36,078 nucleotides of DNA from a virus, in UHGV virus genome UHGV-2168191. The stretch is one strand, 5' to 3'. A program made the position numbers and the translations under genes. This document shows, piece after piece, positions 2,856-26,756 of this stretch (the stretch's first letter is position 1; the number at the start of each line of letters is the position of its first letter). The notes beneath the pieces were generated by a model, which saw nothing but the letters and a program-made list of their open reading frames with translations, was not told the DNA's origin and ran no database searches.

Positions 2856-3071
2856 TCAAAGAGAGAGCGCCACCTGTCCTGATTTCATTGGATGCGGCTG
2901 AACCGGATTTGACTCTTTTGGCGTTGCAATCGAACGAACAAAAGTTTCATGGGTAACAAAAGTATGGCTGCAGTTAATGTTCTGGCACTGGTTGTAACGC
3001 TCTTTGGTCAATGAAGATACCTGAAAACTGCTGCGAGTATGGGCGGCACTTCCACACAGTGGGCAAATCAT
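2856..3071 (-). CDS. ogr: Ogr/Delta-family zinc-finger late-gene activator
   Basis: About 71 aa from the internal Met (MICPLCGSAAHTR...CQNINCSHTF): four-Cys zinc-finger pattern and length typical of P2 Ogr; the last gene before host DNA, as in a P2 prophage. The ORF track's longer 83-aa start is probably upstream read-through. Confidence 0.85.
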   Translation of the reverse strand: MICPLCGSAAHTRSSFQVSSLTKERYNQCQNINCSHTFVTHETFVRSIATPKESNPVQPHPMKSGQVALSL

Positions 3072-3164
3072 CATTTTTCGAGTTCTCCCCATTTTTGCTA
3101 AATTCACAATAATGATACCGCATTATTCCATTTTGAAAACTTAAAAGTTCTCCATTACGAAGAA

Positions 3165-4265
3165 TCATTCCATTTCGAAATCATCAATCTTCACTTCAAG
3201 CTCCAGACTGGTCGTAAAACCGTTATCCGGGCTGACGGTATGTGTCAGAGTCGTAATGGTCCATTCCGCATCATCTATCGGCTGTTTAAAACCACTGACC
3301 TTCACAGGCATTTCCGTGTAGAGATCTGCCCGCCCTTCCGCCAGTTGTAGCGAGAATGACGCAACGCCGCGTTGCAGGCGTTCCCACTGCATTTTTGCCG
3401 CTCGTTCGGCGTTGCTCCGGTTGGCATAAGTGCGATTAAGTACCAGCACGTTTTCATCCGTCCCCACCAGGTAATCGCCCTGCTTCGCTTCCGGCTCTTT
3501 CTTCCGCTTCTTAGTCCTGCGCTTACGCTTCACCGTAGTGCTTTCTTTCTTCGCGGGTTCGCGGGTATGCAACCAGCTGGCAATTACGCCCGTATAGGCT
3601 CCGCGATCTGCCAGGGTAAAGCGGTGACTGTCGCCGTCCTTGCGTGTGATAGTGATCACCGGCAGAGGTTTACCGCTGGCGCTTTTGCCCTGTCCCTGCC
3701 GGATGAATAACAGATTGCCATTTTTCACCGACGCGATGGCACCGTACTGTCGCGCCAGCCGCATCAGAAAACTGCCGTCACTCTCATTGGTCTGGTCTAT
3801 ATGTTCCACGGGTTTATCTGACAGGTCTTTACCCAGTGCCATCTTCAGTTTGTGCCGCGCAGCTATTTCCTTCACCACTTCCCCAACGGTGGTCTTGTGC
3901 CACGACTTTTCACGACGGGTATTCAGCGTTTCACGAAAATCAGCACTTCGCGCCCGGATAGTCAGGCGGTCCGGTGCGCCAGTGTGTTCAATCTCGTCCA
4001 CCGTGAATGCCCCTTTCGGGAAAAGCGGCTGCCCCTTCCAGCCCAGCGCCAGCGTAATGACCGCACCACGGCGCGGCAGCACGATTTTTCCATCGGCGTC
4101 GTCCAGCTCCAGATCAAGCTGGTCCGCTTCAAAGCCCCGGTTATCCGTCAGCGTCAGCCCCATCAGGCGGTTGTCCAGCACAGTGGTGATATCCCTGCCT
4201 TCAATACTGATGCTGAATGCCGGAGTTTTGTTGCCTTTGTTAAGCAGTTCAGAGCTGAAATTCAC
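3165..4265 (-). CDS. D: P2 gpD-like tail protein (late control gene D)
   Basis: 366-aa ORF immediately upstream of ogr in P2 gene order U-D-ogr; coupled to U by a 4-nt overlap; contains a basic KRKRRTKKRKK stretch. Confidence 0.82.
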   Translation of the reverse strand: MNFSSELLNKGNKTPAFSISIEGRDITTVLDNRLMGLTLTDNRGFEADQLDLELDDADGKIVLPRRGAVITLALGWKGQPLFPKGAFTVDEIEHTGAPDRLTIRARSADFRETLNTRREKSWHKTTVGEVVKEIAARHKLKMALGKDLSDKPVEHIDQTNESDGSFLMRLARQYGAIASVKNGNLLFIRQGQGKSASGKPLPVITITRKDGDSHRFTLADRGAYTGVIASWLHTREPAKKESTTVKRKRRTKKRKKEPEAKQGDYLVGTDENVLVLNRTYANRSNAERAAKMQWERLQRGVASFSLQLAEGRADLYTEMPVKVSGFKQPIDDAEWTITTLTHTVSPDNGFTTSLELEVKIDDFEME

Positions 4266-4747
4266 GACAGCAGCCCTCCCACCGTTTTACTGATATCGCT
4301 TAAGGCAGATGTTGCCGTTCCCTGCAGATTATTCAGTTGCGCACTGAGATCACCGAACATATCGGGCAGGGATTCATCCACGCGTTTTAGCGACAGGGTG
4401 AACTCAATCCGGCGCGGCATACCGTCGCGGAAAAACTCCGTTTTAGTCTGATTCAGTCCCTCAATCACATACATGCCGTAAATCGTGCCGCTGCCTTCAA
4501 TCAGGGGCCATGCTTTCCCCTGTTCTGCCATCTGCTCCAGTGCCAGCAACGACAGCCTGCCGCCTGTTATTTCCGGCATAAGAACACCGGAAAGCGTCAG
4601 CATGTCGTTTTCCGGTCCCAGAAACTGCGTGGACGGACGTCGGTTTACCCGACTGTTTGCCGCATGTCGCCAGCTGCGTTGATACTGCAGTTCCTGATAC
4701 GGAACGGTGCGCAGCATAAACACGTACAATCCCAGCACCATCATCAT
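4262..4747 (-). CDS. U: P2 gpU-like tail protein
   Basis: 161 aa (P2 gpU is about 159 aa); sits between T and D; start overlaps the T stop. Confidence 0.82.
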   Translation of the reverse strand: MMMVLGLYVFMLRTVPYQELQYQRSWRHAANSRVNRRPSTQFLGPENDMLTLSGVLMPEITGGRLSLLALEQMAEQGKAWPLIEGSGTIYGMYVIEGLNQTKTEFFRDGMPRRIEFTLSLKRVDESLPDMFGDLSAQLNNLQGTATSALSDISKTVGGLLS

Positions 4748-24416: not shown

Positions 24417-24820
24417 TCTCCGGCGATCGTTAAAAAATCAAAATTGACTTTAAATACCTTATCCATTACCTGACGAATGGTTGATACCTCTTCAAAGTCG
24501 ACAGGCTTCACGGTTCGCACCTGTCTGCTGCCTTCGTGTGTAATCACAATTTGCACAGTTGACATCAGGCGATCACGAAGTTTTCTGGCGACTTCCGGCG
24601 ATGCAGCAGAAATAACATTCAGACCAAGGGTGGCAAGGCCAGCACACCCCATGGCAATCACATCAGCAGGAATACCAGAGAATCCCGATTCCCCCATGGA
24701 GCGGAATAAATCCTGTGCCAGTTCGTCGGCATCCCATGCCGACATCTCTGTGATAATGAACTCCTTCCCATTGTCGCGATTATCGTCTTCCACGATAAAG
24801 GAGATTTCTTTACGTGCCAT
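24413..24820 (-). CDS. tail assembly chaperone-like protein
   Basis: 135-aa acidic protein between tube and tape measure, the usual chaperone position. Confidence 0.45.
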   Translation of the reverse strand: MARKEISFIVEDDNRDNGKEFIITEMSAWDADELAQDLFRSMGESGFSGIPADVIAMGCAGLATLGLNVISAASPEVARKLRDRLMSTVQIVITHEGSRQVRTVKPVDFEEVSTIRQVMDKVFKVNFDFLTIAGE

Positions 24821-25254
24821 CAGATAGTGCTCCGTGTTACAGACTCAAAGTGAAATACTGCCGGGCGTGGTTGCAGTACGCGCCGACCCGGAGGGGTTGG
24901 AGTCCATGTATAAAGAACCCCGTTCACAAAATTCCACTTCGCGCCGAGAGCCGGAACTGTAAGCACCGCATTACACTGAAACGCTGAAATTGCGGTTCTC
25001 TCCGCTGCATACCAGTCATCAATCAGCGAGCCAGCATTGGATGTGGGCATCAGGTTGATGGTGAACTCTGTCGGGTTAAAGATAAAACCAGCATGGTATT
25101 TACCGTCCGCTGACATCATGTCTTCTTTGTTCTGTAACGCACCAGTTTCAAACATGTTATCAGCTGCGTAGTCGTCAACATCAAAACCGCCAGGGTAGTA
25201 AGCGGGTACGACGATTCGCAGCTTACTGTTTGCCGAGGTAATATCGATAGGCAT
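24820..25254 (-). CDS. tail tube-like protein (second tail module)
   Basis: 144 aa immediately downstream of the sheath-like gene. Confidence 0.55.
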   Translation of the reverse strand: MPIDITSANSKLRIVVPAYYPGGFDVDDYAADNMFETGALQNKEDMMSADGKYHAGFIFNPTEFTINLMPTSNAGSLIDDWYAAERTAISAFQCNAVLTVPALGAKWNFVNGVLYTWTPTPPGRRVLQPRPAVFHFESVTRSTI

Positions 25255-25265
25255 GATTTATTCCC

Positions 25266-26756
25266 TTATAAAATCGCGGTTGAGGACATCGTGATGGACT
25301 GAATAAGTTGCCCATCGACATAATAAAAAATGACACCTTTCAGGTCGCGCTCAATGCGTGCAGAGCCTGACTGTGTCGGGATGTACAGGAACCAGCCCTG
25401 TGAATACAGCGTCGATGAGATATCTTTTCCAACTGTGTTATTCACAATTCTGGTTTGCGCATTATCAAGTTTCACGCCGCGCTGAATAGCCCCGAAATTG
25501 AGAGCCTGTTCAGCAACATCAATAACAGCAGCAGAAACTGCGCCGTATCCTGTCTCATTGAACGGGTAAGACTGGTTATTGGTGAACAGGTTGGCAAAAG
25601 CACTAACCAGATTGGCATTAATCCATACCTGATTAATAAAACTGTCCAGCCATACAAACTTTCCAGTAATGGCACCATCAGATGCGTACTGCGCCATTGT
25701 TTTGTTCAGGCTGTATGATCCGTAGAAGTTGTAACCGTTTGACTTCAGTGCCTGAGCGGTCGCCAGATCTCTGACGTTGGGTGCTAACCCTGAAAATCCA
25801 CGGAACTTGAACGAGATACGCCCATTGGTGCGTGCAAAATCCACGGATGCAGCATATGCCAGTGCTGTAACGCTATACAGGTATGTTCCGTACACCGGAA
25901 AAATGTTCTCGTAGCCATTTGCCACAACCACTTTCTGCACAAAGCAATTGGCATTATTTGCTACCGTTCCTGCTGAGGTGGTGTCGTGAACAACATATCC
26001 AAACCGGTTTTTACTGCTGCTTGCCCATGCGCACAATTCTGTTTTCTGGTCATCGGTCAGTTCGACCAGCGAGTTAAACAGGATCCAGTTCTGGTTGACG
26101 TTGATGATGTTGTTCATCGTGTCTGTCAGCGTTACCGCATCAGAACCCGGTGATACAATCGCTGCGGAATCCTGCGTCAGTAACAACCCGGTAGCCAGAG
26201 CGCCAGCAGAAGCATAAGACACTTCACTCTCTGCGCCAGTAGTGGCAGAGCGAATGATGAATCGGTTAGCGATTGGCAACCATTCAACCACCACCTTGCT
26301 TGCACCAATTCCAACCTGCAACTTGGACGCAATGTCACTAAAACTTGTGGCTGTGGACAAATCAATTGATGTGCTGGTAGTCGACTCACCGTCAATGGAA
26401 AGGGTGATTGTTCCTGCTGGAATCGCTTTCAGTGTTGCCAGGGCAACACCTTTCAGGTTGCCGGACAGAAGATACCCAGCCACTGGTGAAGTAACAATAC
26501 GATACATCAGCAGTTCACCAGGAATAACGGATGAGTTTTCGTAGCCGTTAAAATACTGTTGTGCGGCGAGGAATTCTTTCGATTCACTCCCCATCAAAGC
26601 TGATACATCAGATGAGGAGTAATAAGATTGTACCGCGCCAACCGGGATAAGCTCGTTATCGGTCAACATCAGGCCGTTAGCATCAACCGCAGAACCGGCA
26701 GGCGTAACGACATTGGGCGTGATATTAAAATCTACAGATAAAGGGATTGTGCTCAT
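25266..26756 (-). CDS. contractile tail sheath-like protein (second tail module)
   Basis: 496 aa, the size of Mu/PBSX-type sheaths, followed by a tube-sized gene and preceded by four connector-sized genes. Confidence 0.6.
   Translation of the reverse strand: MSTIPLSVDFNITPNVVTPAGSAVDANGLMLTDNELIPVGAVQSYYSSSDVSALMGSESKEFLAAQQYFNGYENSSVIPGELLMYRIVTSPVAGYLLSGNLKGVALATLKAIPAGTITLSIDGESTTSTSIDLSTATSFSDIASKLQVGIGASKVVVEWLPIANRFIIRSATTGAESEVSYASAGALATGLLLTQDSAAIVSPGSDAVTLTDTMNNIINVNQNWILFNSLVELTDDQKTELCAWASSSKNRFGYVVHDTTSAGTVANNANCFVQKVVVANGYENIFPVYGTYLYSVTALAYAASVDFARTNGRISFKFRGFSGLAPNVRDLATAQALKSNGYNFYGSYSLNKTMAQYASDGAITGKFVWLDSFINQVWINANLVSAFANLFTNNQSYPFNETGYGAVSAAVIDVAEQALNFGAIQRGVKLDNAQTRIVNNTVGKDISSTLYSQGWFLYIPTQSGSARIERDLKGVIFYYVDGQLIQSITMSSTAIL

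What the first reader, a model, noticed from the sequence alone, without database searches (positions are those of the whole stretch)
2856..26756. Two non-homologous contractile-tail core modules in one prophage
The window has a P2-order set (FI sheath 390 aa, FII tube 171 aa, E/E', T tape measure 1025 aa, U, D, ogr) and a second set (sheath-like 496 aa, tube-like 144 aa, chaperones, tape-measure-like 591 aa) that has its own neck, baseplate and fibre genes. A virion needs only one. The P2 block is visibly more GC-rich than the rest. The likeliest explanations are a hybrid made by recombination in the tail-fibre/invertase region, which is a known exchange hotspot among P2, Mu, P1 and lambdoid phages, or a tandem or remnant P2-like prophage. 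Because the P2 block keeps intact reading frames, the frameshift site and an Ogr-site promoter, it may still be expressed.
Basis: partly seen in the sequence, partly recalled or inferred. Interest (0 to 1): 0.7.

Follow-up and report, generated by a model that had tools for sequence, protein, structure and literature searches.

The report
Two prophages joined in a tail-fibre gene
The two tail gene sets are real, but they belong to two different E. coli prophages normally 80 kb apart, joined here inside a shared stretch of their tail-fibre genes, an ordinary kind of prophage mosaic that could also be an assembly error.

Summary
Positions 2856-10002 hold an intact P2-type set (ogr, D, U, T, E/E', FII, FI). 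Positions 12762-36078 hold a complete E217-type myovirus late region with its own sheath, tube, chaperone, tape measure, baseplate, neck and head.

They are not one phage. The window is an exact concatenation of two prophages that occur separately in public assemblies:
- **P2-like prophage:** inserted 13 bp past rybB, next to ybjL. It is 100% identical to the window over 1-12616.
- **Lambdoid myophage with E217-type structural genes:** inserted at the lambda attachment site next to ybhB-bioA. It has 1 mismatch over 12491-36078.

SNP mapping places the switch at 12523-12630. This is the longest exact block (108 bp) the two parents share, and it lies inside the fibre gene's receptor-binding part. 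It is not at the 26-bp invertase site (12736-12761), so the join came from homology, not from the invertase.

The parents lie in the same orientation 80.6 kb apart, so a simple deletion or a homologous insertion would produce this join. The junction is known from one JGI contig only. It is absent from 5,426 complete E. coli genomes, so an assembly chimera is not excluded.

The P2 arm lacks V, W, J and I and all head genes, so it is a stranded passenger. Interest is low.

The parts
1..2791 (.). E. coli chromosome flank: grxA (1-258 +), ybjM (288-665 -), ybjL (935-2620 +), sRNA gene rybB (2700-2778 +). Homology to K-12 ends at 2791.
   Evidence: 99.4% identical to K-12 890,753-887,963. Rfam RybB 105 bits.
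2792..10144 (-). Right arm of a P2-like prophage: ogr 2856-3074, D 3165-4265, U 4262-4747, T 4744-7821, E 7948-8250 with E' 7814-7933 (slippery TTTTTTG 7993-7987), FII 8305-8820, FI 8830-10002, and a PF-type promoter region with TGT-N12-ACA at 10096-10079.
   Evidence: Pfam. Sequence read directly. 100% identical to contigs L012 and L020, which belong to P2-like prophages at ybjL.
10145..10717 (-). Din-family serine DNA invertase (Resolvase plus HTH_7 domains).
   Evidence: Pfam E 2e-53 and 1.5e-15. Annotated as recombinase or DNA invertase in P2-like relatives.
10767..12761 (.). Invertible fibre segment bounded by two 26-bp inverted crossover sites, 10767-10792 (P2-parent allele) and 12736-12761 (E217-parent allele), both with core AA. 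It contains alternative Hc' (10742-11233 +), tfa' (11236-11679 +), the active tfa (11651-12253 -) and the distal part of the fibre gene.
   Evidence: Inverted repeat I1. Site scan. Pfam Caudo_TAP twice and Gp53-like_C.
12253..13146 (-). Chimeric tail-fibre gene (297 aa). The N-terminal baseplate-attachment part comes from the E217-type phage and the distal receptor-binding part from the P2-like prophage. It is in frame.
   Evidence: Translation. Pfam Collar. Parent alignments.
12523..12630 (.). Crossover interval: a 108-bp block identical in both parents. It is flanked by a P2-type allele at 12522 and by E217-type alleles from 12631 onward.
   Evidence: SNP mapping against L009/L011 and L005/L006. 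It is the longest exact block the parents share.
12762..18053 (-). E217-type baseplate: fibre N-terminus, wedge 13149-13787, baseplate J 13798-15027, sheath initiator 15024-15383, 15380-16165, hub 16065-17054, plug 16939-17241, 17238-18053.
   Evidence: Pfam and PHROG. 99.99% identical to L005/L006.
18104..22417 (.). Accessory block inside the tail operon: two antirepressor genes (18325-19104, 19138-20196), an Arc-like gene (20385-20744 +), a P63C-domain gene (20758-21852), and an ORF of unknown function (21959-22417 +).
   Evidence: PHROG. Gene tables of L005. About 94% identical to the ant region of Stx phages.
22426..27313 (-). E217-type tail core: tape measure / lytic tail protein 22426-24201, small ORF 24198-24416, chaperone 24413-24820, tube 24820-25254, sheath 25266-26756, tail terminator 26753-27313.
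27265..36078 (-). E217-type neck and head, with terminase: collar-like 27265-27636, 27611-28057, DUF4054 28057-28488, major capsid candidate 28852-29892, decoration/cement 29896-30375, 30379-31605, Mu-F-like 31740-32558, portal 32479-34014, TerL 34014-35534, TerS 35488-36078.
   Evidence: Pfam. Precomputed Pfam on identical contigs L014/L015. 100% identical to L014/L015 over 24014-36078.

Best explanation
The window spans a joint between two unrelated prophages of one E. coli lineage.

The left part (2792-12522) is the right arm of a P2-like prophage that sits at its usual site just past rybB/ybjL. The right part (12631-36078) is the whole late region of a lambdoid temperate myophage with E217-type structural genes. 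That phage normally sits at the lambda attachment site next to ybhB-bioA, and there its fibre and tfa genes are the last genes before attR.

Both phages carry fibre genes that share about 270 bp: a Din-type crossover site plus the start of the receptor-binding part. A single homologous crossover in the 108-bp identical core of that stretch fused them in frame. RecA or a phage Red/Rad52-type recombinase could have catalysed it (inferred).

The two prophages lie in the same orientation, 80.6 kb apart on the K-12 map. The simplest route is therefore a deletion of ybhB-bio-uvrB-moa...rcdA together with the P2 left arm. The alternative is a Campbell-type homologous insertion of the circular myophage genome into the P2 H gene (inferred).

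Consequences, all inferred:
- The myophage keeps a complete tail of its own. It gains a P2-type receptor tip, the matching tfa, and a working-looking invertible host-range switch with invertase.
- The P2 genes FI, FII, E/E', T, U, D and ogr are stranded passengers without V, W, J, I, R, S or head genes, so they cannot build a tail.
- Those genes could still be transcribed, either from their own Ogr-dependent promoter or by read-through of the antiterminated lambdoid late transcript on the same strand.
For: 1. **Parents found apart.** Contigs carrying the identical tape measure, tfa or invertible segment all show a complete P2-like prophage at ybjL, or break in the segment. Contigs carrying the identical wedge, baseplate J or terminase show the E217-type phage ending fibre-tfa-attR-ybhB-bioA, with no invertase and no P2 genes. 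In complete genomes, related E217-type prophages also end at tfa, next to torT, dacD or argW.
2. **Identity.** Window 1-10905 is 100% identical to L012, 1651-12284 to L020 and 10779-12616 to L021. Window 12491-23787 has 1 mismatch against L005/L006. Window 24014-36078 is 100% identical to L014/L015.
3. **SNP mapping.** Of 10 sites that distinguish the parents in 12491-12761, the window has the P2 allele at 12522 and the E217 allele at the other nine. The interval is the longest exact shared block, 108 bp; the next longest is 53 bp.
4. **Geometry.** K-12 homology ends at 2791 (K-12 887,963). The E217-type parent joins K-12 at 807,328. Both phages' late genes run in the same chromosomal direction.
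5. **Lambdoid nature.** The E217-type parent has lambdoid early and lysis genes and a lambda-like attP arm beyond tfa (the likeness to lambda attP is from my own knowledge).
6. **Continuity of the source contig.** It runs unbroken through a region where assemblies holding both parents break (L021 ends at 12616, L020 at 12284, L006 at 12096). That is what a strain holding only the recombinant path would give.
7. **Precedent.** Lambda recombines with defective prophages through stf/tfa homology (PMC3945230). Prophage-borne homology drives large chromosomal rearrangements in E. coli (PMC8743559).
8. **A second, independent join of the same kind.** Contig L026 is 99.3% identical to a TB354-type E217 baseplate and 99.0% to a pinE-type invertible segment, and the two parts overlap in the same block.
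Against: - The junction is known from one JGI/IMG contig only.
- It is absent from 5,426 complete E. coli genomes, from the JGI metagenome, IMG/VR and GTDB-representative scans, and from every contig carrying identical flanking proteins.
- There is no divergence from either parent, so the event would be very recent.
- A deletion would cost biotin synthesis, molybdenum cofactor synthesis, uvrB and about 70 other genes.
- The window ends at terS, so neither the far end of the myophage nor the fate of the P2 left arm can be seen.
- A switch in the longest exact repeat is also what a graph-based mis-join would produce.
Confidence: 0.55

Rival explanations
1. Assembly chimera. The source strain holds both prophages in their parental state, and the assembler walked from the E217-type fibre gene into the P2-like prophage through the shared exact repeat. 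In that case no such DNA molecule exists.
For: - The junction is a singleton from one JGI/IMG contig and was found nowhere else.
- The window is an exact concatenation of two sequences that occur separately, in parental form, in other samples. Five contigs carry the parental 286-aa fibre.
- The two prophages co-occur in single assemblies: ERZ1304610 has NODE_47 and NODE_567, and JGI 3300029567 has L011 and L016.
- The switch lies in the longest exact repeat.
- In ERR1190803 the k=127 unitig L021 stops at 12616, which is 12490 + 126. That implies a shared node starting at 12491 and therefore a 140-bp exact repeat in that strain (inference).
- The only other hybrid, L026, also comes from a metagenome assembly and has no counterpart in complete genomes.
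Against: - With k of 119-141 and a 108-bp repeat, the parents share no k-mer, so a de Bruijn mis-join needs a longer repeat or loss of the correct arms.
- Assemblers faced with both parents broke here rather than mis-joining (L006, L020, L021).
- The source contig is long (232.6 kb) and continuous through the whole invertible region.
- Recombination at this spot is well precedented.
Confidence: 0.37
2. Invertase-mediated site-specific recombination. The P2-borne Din invertase recombined its own site with the orphan site in the E217-type fibre gene and so fused the two prophages at the 2-bp core.
For: - An intact invertase and two good 26-bp sites with matching AA cores are present.
- Every E217-type fibre gene examined carries an orphan site.
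- Exchange of fibre modules by invertases has been proposed (Sandmeier 1994, as cited in PMC3945230).
Against: - A crossover at the core (12748-12749) would leave P2 alleles at 12631, 12685, 12712, 12715, 12721, 12739 and 12747. The window has the E217 alleles at all seven.
- From my own knowledge, Din invertases act on inverted sites in cis with an enhancer. They give inversions, not deletions between direct sites 100 kb apart.
Confidence: 0.03
3. A genuine, viable hybrid phage whose genome includes both tail-core sets and uses both, or that carries the P2 set as a selected cargo.
For: - All P2 tail-core frames, the frameshift site and the Ogr-type promoter are intact.
- They lie on the same strand and downstream of the myophage late operon.
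Against: - The P2 arm runs straight into the P2 attachment junction and the host genes rybB and ybjL. It is chromosomal prophage DNA, not part of a packaged genome.
- No E217-type relative carries P2 tail genes.
- V, W, J, I, R and S are missing, so the P2 parts have no baseplate to assemble on.
- The myophage's attR is missing from the expected place, so normal excision would fail in the deletion model.
Confidence: 0.03

Closest known systems
P2-like (Peduoviridae) prophages of E. coli that carry a fibre invertase, e.g. Escherichia phage 500465-1 and the prophage at ybjL in strain ECO2947
   Same: Window 2792-12755 is collinear with these, in the order ogr-D-U-T-E/E'-FII-FI-invertase-Hc'-tfa'-tfa. 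Identity is 96.7% to 500465-1 and 98% to ECO2947. It is 100% identical to metagenome contigs of such prophages.
   Different: The H N-terminus, I, J, W, V, S, R, the lysis and head genes, and the early genes are all missing. They are replaced at the fibre gene by an unrelated phage.
E217/PB1-type contractile tails (Pseudomonas phage E217, cryo-EM structure PMC10329688). The nearest isolates by sheath are Edwardsiella phages Edno5 and GF-2.
   Same: The sheath (E217 gp31 family), tube (gp32 family), collar gp28-like, gp27-like (DUF4054), terminator, Pam3-type plug and wedge all match by Pfam, PHROG or PDB. The sheath is 75% identical in amino acids to Edno5 and GF-2.
   Different: Here the module sits in a temperate lambdoid genome with O/DnaC-like replication genes, nin genes, a Q antiterminator and a lambda-like att. 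No deposited phage genome matches the late region at nucleotide level, apart from the ant block.
Recombination between a lambdoid phage and resident prophages through stf/tfa homology (De Paepe et al. 2014, PMC3945230), and prophage-driven large chromosomal rearrangements in E. coli O157:H7 (PMC8743559)
   Same: The exchange goes through short, partly diverged homology in tail-fibre genes. Prophages act as portable repeats that rearrange the chromosome.
   Different: The partners here are a myophage and a P2-like prophage. The homology is only about 270 bp, with a 108-bp exact core. The product is seen once and has not been verified at read level.
Din-family invertible fibre segments (Mu G/Gin, P1 C/Cin, e14 P/Pin)
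   Same: There is a serine invertase next to a roughly 2-kb segment. The segment is bounded by 26-bp inverted sites inside the fibre gene and holds two opposed Hc-tfa cassettes.
   Different: In the window the two sites come from different parents. Inversion itself was not shown, and the enhancer was not examined.

Membership tests
P2-like tail-core operon (FI-FII-E/E'-T-U-D plus ogr) | Gene order and family membership of each product | tested here: met
   Pfam hits for all seven genes, in P2 order.
P2-like tail-core operon (FI-FII-E/E'-T-U-D plus ogr) | Programmed -1 frameshift site giving E+E' | tested here: met
   TTTTTTG at 7993-7987, followed by the E' frame 7814-7933 (Phage_P2_GpE on identical contigs). 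Frameshifting itself was not tested.
P2-like tail-core operon (FI-FII-E/E'-T-U-D plus ogr) | Ogr-dependent late promoter (TGT-N12-ACA dyad upstream of FI) and an intact ogr | tested here: met
   Dyad at 10096-10079, 85 bp before the FI start. Ogr_Delta zinc finger E 7e-22. That this dyad defines P2 late promoters is from my own knowledge.
Complete P2-like prophage | Baseplate (V, W, J, I), tail completion (R, S), head, lysis and early genes adjoining the fibre gene | tested here: not met
   All are absent from the window. They are present in the parental prophages.
E217/PB1-type contractile tail module | Sheath of the gp31/DUF3383 family and tube of the gp32 family, with matching neck and baseplate parts | tested here: met
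PB1-like virulent phages (as a taxon) | Virulent lifestyle and the PB1-type replication module | tested here: not met
   Identical contigs continue into lambdoid early, nin, Q and lysis genes. The phage is integrated at the lambda att region.
Din-type invertible fibre switch | Serine invertase plus two inverted 26-bp sites with identical core dinucleotide, bracketing opposed Hc/tfa cassettes | tested here: met
Din-type invertible fibre switch | The segment actually inverts | tested here: inconclusive
   In ERR1190803 the segment's unitig (L021) begins exactly at the core dinucleotide, 10779. The segment is therefore joined to two different contexts there. Inversion or another element sharing the segment would both explain this.
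Prophage-prophage homologous recombination product | Both parents exist at separate loci, and the joint lies in sequence they share | tested here: met
Prophage-prophage homologous recombination product | The joint exists in DNA (read-level or long-read support; reciprocal product or deletion shown) | not testable with these tools
R-type tailocin (P2-tail-derived bacteriocin) | A full tail including baseplate and fibres, plus lysis genes, without head genes | tested here: not met
   The P2 arm has no baseplate or lysis genes. The neighbouring module has head and terminase genes.

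The most novel reading that the evidence does not exclude
The joint is real and the fused element is still inducible. This would be a lambdoid myophage that has just captured a P2 invertible host-range cassette by a single crossover with a resident prophage. On induction its antiterminated late transcript would read into the stranded P2 sheath, tube, tape-measure and hub genes. 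One cell would then make two unrelated sets of contractile-tail parts, with possible interference, polysheath formation, or help for P2/P4-type elements.
Probability: 0.05. Interest if true: 0.5.

Novelty: new member of a known kind. Interest (0 to 1): 0.22.

Why it matters
If the joint is real, it is a cleanly resolved and very recent example of prophages acting as portable repeats. A 108-bp identical stretch in tail-fibre genes was enough to fuse two unrelated myophages. The fusion swaps a receptor-binding tip and a host-range switch between them, and probably deletes about 80 kb of chromosome.

That illustrates a known principle, tail-fibre genes as exchange points, rather than a new one.

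If the joint is an artefact, it is a useful warning. Conserved fibre blocks can create 'dual-module' prophages in metagenome contigs. In either case there is no phage here that needs or uses two tail cores.

Tried and rejected
- **Exact look-up of the hybrid fibre protein and of its database twin P0001.** The cluster look-up gave only 'JGI/IMG, one contig, 232,588 bp'.
- **Junction-specific DNA pattern.** A P2-specific anchor at 12455-12490 and an E217-specific anchor at 12762-12795 gave no hits in metagenome, viral or genome collections. The E217 anchor alone, run as a control, found one unrelated food-metagenome contig (L018) with the parental type.
- **Junction-spanning query against complete E. 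coli genomes.** No record covers both sides. The same holds for the second hybrid, L026.
- **Invertase-mediated fusion.** Rejected on the SNP pattern.
- **Inversion between the two prophages.** Disfavoured. The near-identical E217-type parent sits at the lambda att region in the same orientation as the P2-like prophage, so direct repeats would give a deletion.
- **A natural E217-type phage with its own invertase cassette as the whole explanation.** Rejected. Relatives do keep remnants of tfa' and of an invertase HTH (L027, L002), but here the sequence continues through P2 tail genes to the P2 attachment junction.
- **Tailocin reading of the P2 arm.** Rejected, because there is no baseplate and there are no lysis genes.
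- **tRNA scan.** None found.
- **PDB sequence search with the tube protein.** No hit. The tube assignment rests on Pfam E217_Gp32 and gene position.

Full report
**What is in the window.** Almost all long frames from 2856 to 36078 are on the minus strand.

Pfam assigns 2856-10002 to Ogr, gpD, gpU, a 1025-aa tape measure, gpE, the FII tube and the FI sheath, in P2 order. A serine invertase follows at 10145-10717. Next come two oppositely oriented fibre-tip and tail-fibre-assembly cassettes, and then a 297-aa fibre gene at 12253-13146.

From 13149 onward there is a second, complete myovirus late region:
- wedge, baseplate J, sheath initiator, hub and plug
- a tape-measure / lytic tail protein (591 aa) and a chaperone
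- a tube of the E217 gp32 family (144 aa)
- a sheath of the DUF3383 / E217 gp31 family (496 aa; Pfam E 1e-106; solved E217 sheath E 2e-16)
- terminator, collar, capsid, portal, TerL and TerS

In the E217 structure paper gp31 is the sheath and gp32 the tube (PMC10329688). The two sheaths and the two tubes have no significant pairwise similarity. G+C is 0.551 for the P2 arm and 0.457 for the other phage.

The E/E' slippery heptamer and a TGT-N12-ACA dyad upstream of FI are present.

**Where the two halves come from.** The window is E. coli. Positions 1-2791 are grxA, ybjM, ybjL and rybB, 99.4% identical to K-12. K-12 homology stops 13 bp past rybB.

- **P2 side.** In strain ECO2947 and in many contigs, the same sequence (ogr through the invertible segment) is the right arm of a complete P2-like prophage at this site. 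The genes V, W, J, I and H precede the invertible segment there. Of the 5,426 complete genomes, 572 carry a place that covers at least 80% of window 2500-12500.
- **E217-type side.** Contigs that carry the identical wedge, baseplate J, fibre or terminase proteins show this phage ending fibre-tfa and then ybhB-bioA-bioBFCD-uvrB. They have no invertase and no P2 gene. Upstream of terS the identical contig L014 continues into lambdoid lysis, Q, nin and replication genes.
- **Attachment site.** The stretch between tfa and ybhB looks like the P arm of lambda attP (the likeness is from my own knowledge). The junction with K-12 is at 807,328, between ybhC and ybhB.
- **Relatives.** In complete genomes, related prophages also end at tfa, next to torT, dacD or intS-argW.

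No deposited phage genome matches the late region at nucleotide level. The nearest sheaths are those of Edwardsiella phages Edno5 and GF-2, at 75% amino-acid identity.

**The joint.** The window is an exact concatenation of the two parents.

| Window range | Parent contig | Mismatches |
|---|---|---|
| 1-10905 | L012 | 0 |
| 1651-12284 | L020 | 0 |
| 10779-12616 | L021 | 0 |
| 12491-23787 | L005/L006 | 1 (at 12522) |
| 24014-36078 | L014/L015 | 0 |

The parents overlap in 12491-12761 and differ there at ten positions. The window carries the P2 allele at 12522 and the E217-type allele at 12631, 12685, 12712, 12715, 12721, 12739, 12747, 12756 and 12757. The switch therefore lies in 12523-12630. 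This 108-bp block is the longest exact match between the parents; the next longest is 53 bp.

The window has two 26-bp Din-type sites in inverted orientation, both with an AA core. One is at 10767-10792 (P2 allele) and one at 12736-12761 (E217 allele). The left half of the 12736-12761 site and everything back to 12631 is E217-type. An exchange at the site's core is therefore excluded, and the join is homology-based.

**How it could have arisen.** On the K-12 map the two prophages lie 80.6 kb apart, with their late genes pointing the same way.

One crossover between these direct repeats would delete ybhB through rcdA, the myophage's own distal fibre part, tfa and attR, and the P2 left arm. That gives exactly the window.

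A single crossover between a circular myophage genome and the resident P2 H gene would give the same junction without any deletion. A reciprocal junction would then lie about 40 kb away.

The window ends at terS, so these cannot be told apart.

Precedents exist. Lambda acquires DNA from Rac and Qin through stf/tfa homology (PMC3945230), and prophage homology drives large rearrangements in O157:H7 (PMC8743559).

**Is the joint real?** The exact hybrid fibre protein exists once in the protein collection, on one JGI/IMG contig of 232,588 bp. This is presumably the source. The contig look-up does not return it.

Evidence that counts against a real joint:
- The junction is absent from all 5,426 complete E. 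coli genomes and from three collection scans.
- It is absent from every contig that shares identical flanking proteins.
- The two prophages co-occur in parental or broken form in single assemblies. ERZ1304610 has NODE_47 and NODE_567, and JGI 3300029567 has L011 and L016.
- In ERR1190803 the k=127 unitig of the invertible segment stops at 12616. That is what a shared node beginning at 12491 would cause.

An assembler could thus have crossed over here.

Evidence that counts for a real joint:
- Assemblers that saw both parents broke rather than mis-joined.
- A 108-bp repeat is shorter than the usual final k.
- The source contig is continuous through the whole region.

I put a real recombinant at about 0.55 and a chimera at about 0.37.

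A second hybrid contig, L026, joins a different E217-type lineage (99.3% identical to strain TB354) to a pinE-type invertible segment (99.0% identical to strain A29) in the same block. It also lacks a counterpart in complete genomes. It shows that this block is a recurrent switching point, whether in cells or in assemblers.

**What it does.** All of this is inferred.

The E217-type phage has everything needed for its own tail. The chimeric fibre is in frame. It pairs the phage's own baseplate-attachment part with a P2-type tip and the matching tfa, and it is now followed by an alternative tip/tfa cassette and an invertase. A real recombinant would therefore have changed and switchable host range.

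The P2 genes are identical to those of intact prophages, so they are undamaged. Without V, W, J, I, R and S, however, they cannot nucleate a tail.

They could be transcribed from the Ogr-type promoter, since ogr is present. They could also be transcribed by read-through of the lambdoid late transcript on the same strand.

In the deletion model the myophage has lost attR and could not excise normally.

**Verdict.** The thing itself is an instance of a well-known process, or an artefact of it. It is not a phage with two tail systems. Interest is low.

Noticed in passing
window 2700-2791: The P2-like prophage ends 13 bp beyond the 3' end of the sRNA gene rybB (Rfam 105 bits). The attachment site of this common E. 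coli P2-like prophage therefore lies at the rybB terminator, between rcdA and ybjL. At least 572 complete genomes carry the arm.
   Followed up: partly
window 18104-22417: An accessory block sits in the middle of the E217-type tail operon, between the tape measure and the baseplate. It holds two antirepressor genes, an Arc-like gene, a P63C-domain gene and an ORF of unknown function. The ant part is about 94% identical to Stx-converting phages, and the block's content differs among relatives (L002-L004, L027).
   Followed up: partly
L014 1-10047; L022 13353-13734: The E217-type structural module belongs to a lambdoid genome with O, DnaC-like, NinB, Dam, NinX, RusA, Q antiterminator, holin and Rz-like genes. 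That genome has a lambda-like attP arm and is integrated at the lambda att region. No deposited phage genome matches the late region at nucleotide level.
   Followed up: partly
L026 1-4310: This is an independent hybrid contig (ENA ERZ27280641, k141). An E217-type baseplate and fibre N-terminus of a different lineage are joined, in the same conserved block, to a pinE-type Hc-tfa-tfa'-Hc' segment and the start of an invertase. It is also absent from complete genomes.
   Followed up: partly
L027 10363-10556; L002 11995-12093: E217-type prophages in complete genomes keep a truncated, inverted tfa' beyond tfa. In L027 there is also a fragment annotated as an HTH domain lacking its N-terminus; I read it as a possible invertase C-terminus. 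All keep an orphan 26-bp crossover site in the fibre gene. The family seems to have had its own invertible cassette and lost it.
   Followed up: partly
window 10779 (L012 ends at 10905, L021 starts at 10779): In the ERR1190803 assembly (k=127) the unitig of the invertible segment begins exactly at the central dinucleotide of the left crossover site. In that sample the segment is therefore attached to two different contexts, either by inversion in the population or through another element sharing the segment.
   Followed up: partly
window 22426-24201: The 591-aa tape-measure candidate has no Pfam hit. It matches PHROGs named endolysin, lytic tail protein, tape measure and tail injection transglycosylase. 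Relatives are annotated as SLT-domain proteins. It may be a short tape measure fused to a lytic domain.
   Followed up: no
L002 27463-27963: The KCJ3K291 relative has an HNH endonuclease gene between the tail terminator and the collar-like gene. The window lacks it.
   Followed up: no
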